Origin: Patescibacteria group bacterium
Lineage (GTDB): Bacteria; Patescibacteriota; Minisyncoccia; CAIUEV01; JAHKAQ01
Assembly (NCBI GenBank): GCA_034716235.1
Contig: JAYEHH010000032.1
Coordinates: forward strand, 370 to 64,369
DNA length: 64,000 nucleotides
Direction: 5' to 3'
The position numbers were made by a program, and so were the translations under genes. Numbering within the stretch: position 1 is the stretch's first letter; the number at the start of each line of letters is the position of its first letter. This document shows positions 33,452-35,128 of the stretch, in pieces. The notes below the pieces were generated by a model. The model was not told where the DNA came from. It searched no databases and saw nothing but the letters and a program-made list of their open reading frames with translations.

Positions 33452-35128
33452 TTATTTTTTGCGCTTAAAACCAATGACCAATTTATCTTTCAAGAATATC
33501 TCTAAAAATTCTAAAATATTTCTAGTAACAAAAACTGCCGTAAACATACTCAAAGTAATTCCAATTCCTAAAGTAATTGCAAAGCCCTTAACCATTCCGG
33601 TACCTAAGCTTGTTAAAACTACACAAGTAATTAGGGTTGATATGTTTCCATCTCTAATGGATGGCCACGCCCTCTTAAAGCCGTTGCTAATCGCTAGCTT
33701 AACGGAACGTCCTTCTTTTAATTCTTCCTTAATGCGTCCAAAAATAAGGATGTTAGCATCCACCGCCATTCCTACCGAAAGAATAAAACCGGCAATGCCC
33801 GAAAGAGTTAAGGTAATTCCTAAAATTTTAAAAACGGCCACGATAGCAACGGCATAAAAACTTAAGGAAATAACCGCTACCAATCCGCAGATTAAATAAA
33901 AAGTTAGCATAAAACCAGAAACTAAGCTTATTCCAAGTAAGCCAGCCGTTAAACTTTTCTTCAAGGAAGATGCTCCTAAGGAAGCTCCTACTTTTTCTTG
34001 GCTAATCAATTCAATTGGAACCGGTAAAGCTCCAGCATTTAATCTTTTAGCCAATTCCTTGGCCTCGGTGATATCTCCAGAACCAGTGATAACCGCTCTT
34101 CCGTCGGCAATAACGGTTTGGACAACTGGAACGGTAATAGGTGCTCCGTCTAGAAAAATAGCTAATCGTTTACCAACATTTCTTTCGGTAATCTCCCTAA
34201 ACATCTTCTTTCCTTCATCATCAAACTGAAGAGAAACTTGAGGCTCTTGAGTATTTTGATTAAAAATAACCGCTGCTTGCTTTAAATTTTTTCCAGTAAG
34301 CGGAGTTAATTTAAATGGCTGAGTAGCAACTTCTTTTTTTGTTTCGTCAACAGTTTTAAATAAAATGTGGCTTATTTTAACTTCTTGCTGGCCATCAATT
34401 TCTCTCTCGTCAGTTTTCTTAAGAAGATGATAGCCAAATTGAGTTTGAACTAGATTTGGCCAAACAGAATCTTTAGTAAAGTCTTTGTTGAAAGCCACTT
34501 CTTCAAATTCGGGTACCATAGCTTCTTTTCCGAAGAATCCTAAATCTCCACCTTGGTCTTTGTTGGCAACATCGGCAGAATTTTCCTGAGCAAGTTTAGC
34601 AAAATCTTCACCGTCTAAAGCTTTCCCCAAAATAGCTTCTGCCTGAGTTTTGCTTTGCTGATTGGTTTCTTTAGCTATTTCTTGTTCTTCTGGAGTTAAT
34701 TGTAGAGCTTCTTCATCATTTTCTTCCCGAAAATCAAGCACAGGGGTTTCGCCTATCATGGCGATAGCTGCCTCAACATTAGTAACCCCTGCCAAATCTA
34801 CAATGATACGATATTCCTCACCAGATTTATTGGTTAAAATTTGAGGTTCAGAAACTCCATAAGCGTTAACCCTTCTTTCAATAACGTCTCGAATACCACT
34901 CAAGCTTTCTGTCAAACTATCCGAAGGAATACTTGACATATCCGCCCGATAAACCAGGTGAGCTCCTCCTTGCAAGTCAAGTCCCAACTTTATTTTTAAT
35001 TCCCTTAAGGTTTGACCGACAGGCTTTCCCAACAAATTAAAATCTGGCATTTTGGGTGAAGCCACGGCTCCAGCAACTAAAGTTAATAGAATTATAGCTA
35101 GAATGTTAAGATAAATTTTTTTATTCAT
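33452..35128 (-). CDS. secD: protein translocase subunit SecD with parvulin-like domain embedded in the periplasmic P1 region
   Basis: 558 aa. SecD motifs are present: [36 protein letters not shown], and the TM core with [14 protein letters not shown]. Residues ~145-260 resemble a PpiC/parvulin rotamase ([34 protein letters not shown]...[11 protein letters not shown]). Confidence 0.9.
   Translation of the reverse strand: [558 protein letters not shown]

What the first reader, a model, noticed from the sequence alone, without database searches (positions are those of the whole stretch)
34349..34696. Parvulin-type PPIase-like domain embedded in the periplasmic head of SecD, apparently in permuted order
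SecD residues ~145-260 replace the usual P1-head segment with a sequence matching PpiC/PrsA-type rotamases: [43 protein letters not shown]...[15 protein letters not shown]. The strand that normally opens a parvulin domain (xxSHILxK) appears after this block ([11 protein letters not shown]). That order suggests a circular permutation, which would be compatible with insertion into a host loop. Fusing a foldase directly to the translocon's substrate-pulling domain would couple export and folding, which is attractive for an organism with a minimal chaperone set.
Basis: partly seen in the sequence, partly recalled or inferred. Interest (0 to 1): 0.55.

Follow-up and report, generated by a model that had tools for sequence, protein, structure and literature searches.

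The report
Permuted parvulin foldase inserted in SecD
The SecD subunit of the protein-export machine in this candidate-phyla-radiation bacterium carries an extra prolyl-isomerase (parvulin) domain, with its first strand moved to the end, between the base and the swinging head of its outer domain, so an export motor and a folding helper that are separate but touching proteins in E. coli are here one chain.

Summary
The parvulin match is real (Pfam Rotamase_3 E 8e-21, SecD aa 151-241). It does not replace the P1 head. The head is intact at aa 274-370 (E 7e-30). The parvulin is a ~115-aa insert in the linker between P1 base and P1 head.

The circular permutation is supported.
- The Pfam match lacks beta1.
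- A beta1-type strand (aa 247-258, invariant His254) follows beta4.
- Moving that strand to the front restores a full-length Pfam match (+10-13 bits).
- AlphaFold2 (pLDDT 92) gives exactly the cyclically rotated order alpha1-3, beta2, alpha4, beta3, beta4, beta1'.
- Catalytic-type residues are conserved in 65 homologs.

The permutation is not an adaptation to insertion. Free-standing PrsA-like foldases of Patescibacteria have the same order (110 of 120). The insert is a detachable module: an allele 99% identical to a close homolog (P0002, itself 91% identical to the window SecD) lacks exactly aa 150-264. Magasanikbacteria carry a two-parvulin version.

Most likely function: a PrsA/PpiD-like foldase or holdase acting in cis on chains captured by SecD. 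This is inferred, not shown. I found no description in the literature. I rate it a new variant of known kinds.

The parts
33452..35128 (-). secD gene, 558 aa
   Evidence: ORF. TIGR01129 secD scores 376.6 bits against a cut-off of 244.4. The full-length AF2 model best matches SecDF crystal structures 5yhf, 5xan, 5xap and 3aqp, E 1e-25 to 1e-22.
34718..34891 (-). P1-base, N-terminal part (aa 80-137), ending in strand VLDFREE
   Evidence: Pfam PF21760 SecD_1st, E 3.8e-14. Strand E130-136 in the AF2 model.
34655..34717 (-). Outgoing linker, or stalk (aa 138-158). It is helical from aa 146 and runs straight into parvulin helix alpha1. It contains the invariant Asn156.
   Evidence: AF2 H146-171 and a beta-bridge at aa 143 paired with aa 264. 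N156 is 65/65 conserved.
34397..34654 (-). Parvulin body (aa 159-244): alpha1, alpha2, alpha3, beta2, alpha4, beta3, beta4. Conserved residues are Asp186, Leu196, Met204, Phe208, Thr229 and His234.
34355..34396 (-). Hairpin turn (Asp245-Gly246) and relocated strand beta1' (aa 247-258, [12 protein letters not shown]) carrying His254
   Evidence: AF2 strand E112-123 of the insert model, equal to aa 247-258, block pLDDT 97. His254 and Ile255 are 65/65 and Leu256 is 63/65. Moving the strand to the front raises Rotamase_3 from 72.8-76.6 to 86.2 bits and gives PF00639 coverage 1-97/97.
34316..34354 (-). Return linker, or stalk (aa 259-271), back to the P1 head
   Evidence: Lower pLDDT (block 261-270 = 71) and a bridge at aa 264 with aa 143. 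Variable length in homologs.
34019..34309 (-). P1-head subdomain (aa 274-370), intact
   Evidence: Pfam PF22599, E 6.7e-30, profile 18-114/114. The insert-less allele P0005 has the same coverage.
33503..34015 (-). SecD transmembrane region, C-terminal (aa 372-542)
   Evidence: Pfam PF02355 SecD_SecF_C, E 1.4e-14. Long helices 386-551 in the AF2 model.
34337..34681 (-). The detachable module: aa 150-264 (345 nt), exactly the stretch absent from the natural allele P0005
   Evidence: Global alignments. DNA junction identical in four contigs from four samples.
32442..33440 (-). secF, immediately downstream
   Evidence: ORF. The same arrangement in L085 carries PF02355.
35132..37948 (-). secA, immediately upstream (its stop is 3 nt from the secD start)
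   Evidence: ORF of 938 aa with SecA-type sequence. Identified by eye, not profiled.

Best explanation
SecD of this Patescibacteria bacterium carries an accessory, circularly permuted parvulin-type PPIase domain (aa ~146-262). It sits on a two-stranded stalk in the linker that joins the P1 base to the swinging P1 head.

The domain has the normal parvulin fold, but its central strand beta1, which carries one of the two signature histidines, comes after beta4 through a hairpin. All residues that make PrsA/Par14-type parvulins active or substrate-binding are kept: His254, Asp186, Thr229, His234, and the Leu196/Met204/Phe208 pocket.

Most likely mechanism (inferred): polypeptides leaving SecYEG are captured by the P1-head cavity of SecD. 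The neighbouring parvulin domain binds them in cis and acts as a PrsA/PpiD-like foldase or holdase, carrying out prolyl isomerisation and/or holding unfolded segments. The contact between a parvulin chaperone and SecD, which is made between separate proteins in E. coli, Vibrio and Mycoplasma, is thereby hard-wired.

Shown: the domain's identity, its position, the permuted order, its conservation and its modularity. Inferred: catalytic activity, the substrates, and any coupling to head movement.
For: Identity and position: Pfam and NCBIfam, with the P1 head intact. In the full-length AF2 model the parvulin is the most confident part, pLDDT 90-97. The rest of the model matches SecDF structures.

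Permutation:
- The profile match lacks beta1.
- The motif order is reversed relative to PDB parvulins.
- The un-permuted construct gains 10-13 bits and full profile coverage, whereas controls with a shuffled strand or the native upstream strand do not.
- The AF2 insert model (pLDDT 91.9, pTM 0.82) has the order alpha1-alpha3, beta2, alpha4, beta3, beta4, beta1', with no strand before alpha1.
- The natural deletion allele removes the strand together with the body.

Selection: His234 65/65, His254 65/65, Asp186 63/65, Thr/Ser229 65/65, Leu196 65/65, Phe208 63/65, among homologs down to ~50% identity.

Lineage context: the stand-alone CPR PrsA-like proteins have the same order in 110 of 120 cases.

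Functional plausibility:
- The parvulin lipoprotein Mpn444 cross-links to SecD (bioRxiv 10.1101/2024.09.05.611430).
- The P1-head cavity contacts precursor proteins (PMC5974789).
Against: There is no activity or substrate data.

The tools return no coordinates. The adjacency of His234 and His254 and the pairing of beta1' with beta2 are deduced from strand order, the hairpin and the known parvulin sheet; they were not seen.

The full-length pTM is only 0.57, so the position of the parvulin relative to the head cavity is undefined.

The domain is dispensable for at least one lineage. Allele P0005 lacks it yet is 99.1% identical in protein to P0002, with 63 of 1332 nucleotide differences, which indicates purifying selection on the deletion allele.

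Stand-alone PrsA-like proteins exist in lineages that also have fusions (L050), so the fusion is not simply a replacement for PrsA.
Confidence: 0.6

Rival explanations
1. The same domain and position, but it is not an enzyme. It works only as a substrate-binding or holdase module or a docking surface, like the catalytically inactive parvulin domains of PpiD and SurA-P1. It keeps emerging chains unfolded or passes them on.
For: The functional importance of the PpiD parvulin domain has been questioned (PMC9643414). From established knowledge, parvulin domains of periplasmic chaperones are often dispensable for chaperone activity. The double-parvulin SecD forms carry one clearly degenerate domain, with the beta4 His replaced by Asn.
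Against: In the window's domain every catalytic-type residue of active PrsA/Par14-type parvulins is conserved at 63-65 of 65. The closest sequence matches are active PrsA PPIase domains, e.g. 6xd8 at E 4e-14. Inactive domains usually lose these residues.
Confidence: 0.2
2. The insert is a tolerated decoration with a role unrelated to export of SecYEG substrates (for example binding a cell-surface or host partner), or with no role at all.
For: A natural allele without it persists in four samples. The insertion site is a surface linker that also tolerates a second domain and a ~50-aa acidic loop.
Against: The domain has been retained with invariant core and active-site residues across SecD homologs that are only ~50% identical and carry several candidate-phylum names. 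A neutral insert would decay.
Confidence: 0.1
3. The domain mainly regulates SecD mechanics. Sitting at the base-head junction, it limits or gates the swing of the P1 head, acting as a brake or a sensor of substrate occupancy rather than on substrate folding.
For: The position is exactly in the base-to-head linker. Head mobility is essential for SecDF function (PMC5974789).
Against: Conservation is concentrated on the parvulin substrate pocket and catalytic residues rather than on a surface that could contact the head. The stalk linkers are variable and of lower confidence. No interface could be examined.
Confidence: 0.05
4. There is no true permutation. '[11 protein letters not shown]' is only the leftover first strand of a lost second parvulin (as at the SurA P1-P2 junction) and is not part of the fold, so the remaining domain is incomplete.
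For: phmmer aligns the beta4-to-strand stretch with the SurA P1-to-P2 junction. Canonical tandem parvulins have junctions of the same length, 16-20 residues between the histidines. Two-parvulin SecD forms exist.
Against: No other beta1 candidate exists upstream, where the segment is helical. The strand is predicted as a hairpin partner of beta4 at pLDDT ~97, even in the isolated insert. Its His, Ile and Leu are as invariant as the catalytic core. It is deleted together with the body in P0005. A tandem-duplication origin is compatible with the best explanation, but this non-integrated reading is not.
Confidence: 0.03

Closest known systems
PrsA (Bacillus subtilis and other Firmicutes; PDB 4WO7, 6VJ4/6VJ6, 6XD8)
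   Same: The parvulin domain is of the non-phospho-specific PrsA/Par14 type. PrsA PPIase domains are the best sequence matches (E 4e-14 to 1e-10, 35-45% identity). Both are extracytoplasmic and membrane-tethered, and both are presumed to act on proteins leaving SecYEG.
   Different: PrsA is a lipoprotein in which a canonical-order parvulin is inserted into an NC chaperone domain. Here there is no NC domain and no lipobox. The NCBIfam PrsA equivalog scores 60 bits against a cut-off of 343. The strand order is permuted and the host protein is SecD.
PpiD (with YfgM) cooperating with SecDF in E. coli and Vibrio
   Same: [quoted passage not shown] The CPR protein looks like a gene-fusion ('Rosetta stone') version of that contact.
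SecDF of Thermus thermophilus and Deinococcus radiodurans (PDB 3AQP, 5XAP, 5YHF)
   Same: TM region, P1 base, P1 head and the Sec_GG motif are all present. These are the best fold matches for the full-length model. The working model has the P1 head capturing precursors (PMC5974789).
   Different: By Pfam, those proteins have no extra domain in the base-to-head linker. Here ~115 aa are added there. SecD and SecF are separate genes.
Tandem-parvulin chaperones: SurA (E. coli, 1M5Y) and the Bacteroides fragilis SurA-like PPIase (8HM3/8HM4)
   Same: The beta4-turn-'xHIL' strand stretch resembles the junction between parvulin 1 and parvulin 2. 8HM3/8HM4 are the top structural matches, with 119-125 collinear positions. 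A tandem array is the textbook intermediate for producing a circular permutant.
   Different: In SurA, from knowledge of its structure, the strand after beta4 belongs to the next, complete domain. Here there is no next domain and no preceding beta1. Whether 8HM3 shares the hairpin packing could not be checked.
Mycoplasma pneumoniae Mpn444/Mpn436
   Same: Another small-genome bacterium in which a surface parvulin PPIase is physically linked to SecD, by cross-links, and is proposed to fold proteins emerging from the translocon.
   Different: These are separate, large trimeric lipoproteins with their own chaperone-like domain, and they are not fused to SecD. No permutation is reported in the passages read.

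Membership tests
SecD (protein translocase subunit, TIGR01129) | Whole-protein match above the curated cut-off | tested here: met
   TIGR01129 scores 376.6 bits against a cut-off of 244.4, spanning aa 48-539.
SecD (protein translocase subunit, TIGR01129) | P1 base plus P1 head periplasmic domain between TM1 and TM2, and a C-terminal SecD_SecF TM bundle | tested here: met
   PF21760 at aa 80-137, PF22599 at aa 274-370, PF02355 at aa 372-542, Sec_GG at aa 46-65. AF2 secondary structure and Foldseek hits to SecDF crystal structures.
SecD (protein translocase subunit, TIGR01129) | Partner secF gene adjacent | tested here: met
   A 332-aa ORF at 32442-33440 directly downstream. Its counterpart in L085 carries PF02355 and Sec_GG.
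Parvulin-type PPIase domain (Pfam PF00639 / PF13616) | Profile match above the gathering threshold | tested here: met
   Rotamase_3 75.2 bits (cut-off 22.5) and Rotamase 63.6 bits (cut-off 21.7).
Parvulin-type PPIase domain (Pfam PF00639 / PF13616) | Canonical order of elements: beta1, alpha1-3, beta2, alpha4, beta3, beta4 | tested here: not met
   The order here is alpha1-3, beta2, alpha4, beta3, beta4, beta1'. It has the same elements, cyclically rotated.
Parvulin-type PPIase domain (Pfam PF00639 / PF13616) | Parvulin three-dimensional fold | tested here: met
Parvulin-type PPIase domain (Pfam PF00639 / PF13616) | Dual-histidine motif plus Asp/Cys and Thr/Ser of the active site, and the hydrophobic proline pocket | tested here: met
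   His254, His234, Asp186, Thr229, Leu196, Met204 and Phe208 are present and conserved at 54-65 of 65. The mapping to Pin1/Par14 residues rests on sequence alignment and recalled numbering.
Parvulin-type PPIase domain (Pfam PF00639 / PF13616) | Prolyl cis/trans isomerase activity | not testable with these tools
   Needs a protease-coupled or NMR exchange assay on the excised domain.
PrsA foldase (NCBIfam NF002827 and relatives) | Equivalog-level match, an N/C chaperone domain flanking the parvulin, and a lipoprotein signal | tested here: not met
   Best PrsA model scores 60.2 bits against a cut-off of 343, and only the parvulin part aligns. There is no SurA_N-type domain in SecD.
PpiD | N-terminal TM anchor followed by SurA_N-like chaperone domains and one parvulin domain | tested here: not met
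   NF008054 scores 31 bits against a cut-off of 493. No chaperone domains are present. It resembles PpiD in proposed role only.
CPR-type permuted parvulin (defined here) | Body without a preceding beta1, followed within 16-70 residues of the beta4 His by an 'xHIL' strand | tested here: met
   Window SecD, 65 single-domain SecD homologs and 110 of 120 stand-alone PrsA-like proteins of Patescibacteria share it.

The most novel reading that the evidence does not exclude
Patescibacteria use a naturally circularly permuted parvulin fold as their standard extracytoplasmic PPIase. It probably arose from a tandem parvulin array by loss of the flanking pieces. In several lineages it has been planted at the base-head joint of SecD. 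This would create a single-chain motor-foldase in which proton-driven swinging of the P1 head presents the captured chain to, or pulls it off, the isomerase site. The two-parvulin SecD forms and the clean deletion allele would then be living intermediates of domain gain, nesting and loss.
Probability: 0.3. Interest if true: 0.8.

Novelty: new variant of a known kind. Interest (0 to 1): 0.6.

Why it matters
1. It is a natural fusion between two partners whose cooperation at the translocon exit is known only from cross-linking and genetics: a parvulin chaperone (PpiD, PrsA or Mpn444) and SecD. The fusion is independent evolutionary evidence for that partnership. It also offers a compact system for studying hand-over from the export motor to a foldase.

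2. As far as my literature searches reach, it is the first natural circular permutation described for the parvulin fold. It is conserved across a large bacterial radiation and appears in two different protein contexts.

3. Nature supplies controls: a 99%-identical allele without the domain, forms with a second nested or tandem domain, and forms with long loop insertions. These make the role of the domain directly testable.

4. Pfam flags the domain, but source annotations call these proteins simply 'SecD' or 'PrsA', so the architecture and the permutation go unnoticed.

Tried and rejected
- The first genome-contig scan, with the single window peptide, found nothing. It is therefore a sample, not a census.
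- The exhaustive profile search of 1.84 billion representatives was dominated by multi-parvulin proteins, whose several domains add up in score. Only 5 of the top 150 were full SecD by motif scan, plus two fragments with the same insert. Its counts (902 hits at E<=1e-30) say nothing specific about the fusion.
- The afdb50 fold library was not available.
- I tried to argue hairpin register from the His-to-His spacing. Most values are 20 or 16, but 19, 21, 22, 25, 29, 38 and 70 also occur. The spacing only shows a variable surface loop, and I dropped the register argument.
- I tried to decide whether the single-domain body is orthologous to body A or body B of the double forms. Mean identities are 33% to A, 44% to B and 49% to the stand-alone CPR form. 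This is uninformative because A is degenerate.
- I looked for a description of the 8HM3 structure. The original paper is not in the library, and the later paper does not mention parvulin domains.
- I considered 'P1 head replaced' and rejected it.
- I considered the strand belonging to the SecD P1 domain and rejected it, because it is deleted together with the parvulin in P0005.
- I found no second parvulin-type motif anywhere in the 64-kb window.
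Full report
**What is at the coordinates**

Window 34349-34696 lies on the minus strand, inside a 558-aa ORF (33452-35128). It encodes aa 145-260 of that protein.

The ORF is SecD. TIGR01129 scores 376.6 bits against a cut-off of 244.4. secA sits directly upstream (35132-37948) and secF directly downstream (32442-33440).

Pfam divides the protein as follows:

| Pfam family | Residues | Profile positions | E-value |
|---|---|---|---|
| Sec_GG | 46-65 | | |
| SecD_1st (P1 N-terminal part) | 80-137 | | |
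| Rotamase_3 | 151-241 | 28-115/116 | 8.1e-21 |
| Rotamase PF00639 | 151-240 | 10-97/97 | 3.5e-17 |
| SecDF_P1_head | 274-370 | 18-114/114 | 6.7e-30 |
| SecD_SecF_C | 372-542 | | |

The parvulin match is therefore real and strong. The statement that it replaces the P1 head is wrong. The head is complete, and the parvulin is an extra ~115 aa in the linker between P1 base and P1 head. An allele lacking the insert has the same head coverage, 18-114/114.

**Is it circularly permuted?**

Five independent lines say yes.

1. Both Pfam profiles lose their first 9-27 positions, which correspond to strand beta1 ('xxxHILvk'). The segment before the match is predicted helical, not a strand.
2. A beta1-like peptide, [11 protein letters not shown], follows beta4 (FGYHLLKK). 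In searches against PDB sequences, the same two motifs hit canonical parvulins in the opposite order. Beta1 falls at chain residues ~3-20 and beta4 at ~79-94.
3. I ran an un-permutation test. Placing the strand in front of the body raises Rotamase_3 to 86.2 bits (profile 14-114) and makes PF00639 cover 1-97/97. The comparison values are 72.8 bits for the body alone, 76.6 for the native order, 73.5 with a shuffled strand in front, and 76.4 with the native upstream SecD strand in front.
4. AlphaFold2 on the isolated insert (aa 136-272, 45-sequence alignment) gives pLDDT 91.9 and pTM 0.82. The elements are H11-36, H41-48, H52-55, E60-65, H71-77, E92-94, E97-109, E112-123. That is alpha1-alpha3, beta2, alpha4, beta3, beta4, beta1', the exact cyclic rotation of the parvulin order. 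The last two strands form a hairpin around Asp245-Gly246. The full-length model gives the same elements, and the parvulin is its most confident part, with block pLDDT 90-97.

One limit applies. The tools give no coordinates. The position of beta1' between beta4 and beta2, and the adjacency of the two histidines, are deduced from three facts:
- beta3 occupies the other side of beta4 through a tight turn;
- beta2 needs a partner;
- from established parvulin structures, the sheet order is 2-1-4-3.

They were not observed directly.

**Conservation**

I aligned 65 single-insert SecD homologs, 52-91% identical overall, all with names from the Patescibacteria group. The strand residues are as constrained as the catalytic core:

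| Residue | Conserved in |
|---|---|
| His254 | 65/65 |
| Ile255 | 65/65 |
| Leu256 | 63/65 |
| His234 | 65/65 |
| Asp186 | 63/65 |
| Thr/Ser229 | 65/65 |
| Gly194 | 65/65 |
| Leu196 | 65/65 |
| Met204 | 54/65 |
| Phe208 | 63/65 |
| Phe213 | 64/65 |

By alignment to PrsA and Par14 (numbering recalled from the literature), these are the dual histidines, the Asp that replaces Pin1 Cys113, the Thr of the hydrogen-bond network, and the proline pocket.

The loop between beta4 and beta1' varies. The His-to-His spacing is 16-25 residues, and in one protein it is 70 because of an acidic insertion. That fits a surface hairpin turn.

**The module in its relatives**

- *Distribution of the fusion.* All but one of the best 120 SecD homologs carry the parvulin. 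The names the sources give are Patescibacteria group, Moran-, Magasanik- and Kerfeldbacteria. Species-representative genomes add Buchananbacteria and further Patescibacteria. Some MAGs are labelled Gammaproteobacteria, Lysobacteraceae or Bathyarchaeia. I suspect these are mis-binned, but I did not check.
- *A natural deletion allele.* P0005 (443 aa) is 99.1% identical to P0002 and 92.3% identical to the window protein outside a single 115-aa gap. The gap equals window aa 150-264. At DNA level the two alleles differ at 63 of 1332 aligned positions but at only 4 amino acids. The deletion junction is identical in four contigs from four samples, which themselves differ by 11-14 nt. The deletion allele is therefore real, not brand new, and under purifying selection. 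The parvulin is a detachable accessory and SecD can do without it.
- *Two-parvulin forms.* Fifty-two homologs of ~680 aa, mostly Magasanikbacteria, have two parvulin bodies: body A, strand 'ASHILICY', body B, strand 'SRILIKT'. The residues at the four 'histidine' positions are N, H, H, R in 43 of 52 sequences, and H, H, H, H in one. Pfam sees the middle strand plus body B as a full-length canonical parvulin, 1-115/116. The joint loss of His in body A and in the last strand suggests that A is a degenerate permuted domain with an active canonical domain nested in its hairpin. A tandem of two permuted units is not excluded.
- *Stand-alone proteins with the same permutation.* The permuted order is not peculiar to SecD. 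Patescibacteria, including Saccharibacteria, have membrane-anchored PrsA-like proteins with a TM segment, a SurA_N-type domain, a parvulin and a C-terminal helix. Their Rotamase matches also start at profile position ~10-28, and 'GYHIIK...ASHILIK' follows the body (L011, L014, L020, L022, L050). Among the 120 best homologs of one of them, 110 have the strand after beta4 and none has one before the body. A Firmicute PrsA found in the same scan has the canonical order (L045).

The permutation is thus a feature of the CPR parvulin lineage and was not created by, or for, insertion into SecD. From knowledge of PrsA and SurA structures, canonical parvulins already have adjacent termini and already occur as inserts.

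**Possible origin (inferred)**

Junctions between consecutive canonical parvulins in SurA/PpiD-like proteins of Bacteroidota, Ignavibacteria and KSB1 have the same length and look, for example 'GYHIIQLIEKRDSRINCRHILIQ' with spacing 16.

Loss of the first beta1 and of the second body from such a tandem would give exactly the CPR domain. This is the classical duplication-and-truncation route to a circular permutant.

**How it most likely works**

The established background is this:
- The SecDF P1 head swings between membrane-facing and upright forms, and its amphiphilic cavity contacts precursor proteins (PMC5974789).
- In Mycoplasma pneumoniae the parvulin lipoprotein Mpn444 cross-links to SecD.

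In the window protein the parvulin sits on two antiparallel linkers (aa 138-145 and 259-271, bridged at aa 143 and 264). These emerge precisely between the last base strand (aa 130-136) and the first head strand (aa 272-278).

My best explanation (confidence 0.6) is a cis-acting PrsA/PpiD-like foldase or holdase for chains captured by SecD.

The rivals are:
- a binding-only module (0.2);
- a tolerated decoration with another role or none (0.1);
- a regulator of head movement (0.05);
- a non-integrated relic strand (0.03).

The evidence against a strong claim is:
- there is no assay;
- the domain orientation is undefined (full-length pTM 0.57);
- the deletion allele shows the domain is dispensable;
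- stand-alone PrsA-like proteins occur in lineages that also have fusions.

**Comparison with what is known**

The protein is a bona fide SecD and contains a bona fide parvulin fold. It is not a PrsA (60 bits against a cut-off of 343) and not a PpiD (31 against 493).

Full-text searches found no paper combining parvulin with 'circular permutation' or 'circularly permuted'. None described a SecD-parvulin fusion or this feature in the candidate phyla radiation. The library excludes most subscription journals, so absence of a prior report is not proven.

The precomputed Pfam annotations already list Rotamase domains on these SecD proteins, so the architecture is visible in databases. The source names, however, just say 'SecD', 'PrsA' or 'peptidylprolyl isomerase'.

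**Verdict**

The permutation is supported. The functional idea is plausible and now has natural controls.

I class it as a new variant of known kinds and rate interest at 0.6.

Noticed in passing
window 21341-25040 (minus strand); intron at 22377-22717: A complete 23S rRNA gene spans 3700 nt against a 2925-position Rfam model. It contains a group I intron (Rfam RF00028, 64.8 bits, 341 nt). About 430 further extra nucleotides are unaccounted for. No tRNA gene was found in the 64-kb window.
   Followed up: partly
L081-L084 (P0005) versus L085 (P0002); corresponds to window 34337-34681: A natural in-frame 345-nt deletion allele of secD removes exactly the parvulin module. It is found in four samples with an identical junction. 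It is 99.1% identical in protein to the insert-bearing allele despite 4.7% nucleotide divergence. No flanking direct repeat is evident at the junction.
   Followed up: yes
P0040-P0120 (52 proteins of ~670-712 aa), L006: SecD forms, mostly from Magasanikbacteria, have two parvulin bodies in the same linker. The first body and the last strand have both lost their histidines (N,H,H,R pattern in 43 of 52). This suggests a canonical active parvulin nested inside a degenerate permuted one.
   Followed up: partly
L011, L014, L020, L022, L050; P0271-P0390: Stand-alone membrane-anchored PrsA-like proteins of Patescibacteria and Saccharibacteria carry the same permuted parvulin, with the strand after beta4 and none before the body, in 110 of 120 homologs. 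Sources name them 'foldase protein PrsA' or 'peptidylprolyl isomerase'.
   Followed up: yes
   Followed up: partly
P0008 (613 aa, contig 1.2 Mb), aa ~240-300: A ~50-residue, highly acidic insertion lies in the beta4-beta1' hairpin loop of the SecD parvulin (His-to-His spacing 70). This shows the loop is a permissive site.
   Followed up: no
L001, L005, L006, L007, L008: Contigs encoding CPR-type SecD-parvulin fusions belong to MAGs labelled Gammaproteobacteria, Bathyarchaeia or Lysobacteraceae. The labels are probably binning or naming errors rather than true occurrences outside Patescibacteria.
   Followed up: no
window 31367-38341 (minus strand): Gene order is a small ORF resembling a ribosome hibernation factor (37988-38341), then secA, secD, secF, then an ATP synthase subunit a-like ORF (31367-32110). 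The secA stop and the secD start are 3 nt apart, which suggests one operon. Only secD was profiled.
   Followed up: no
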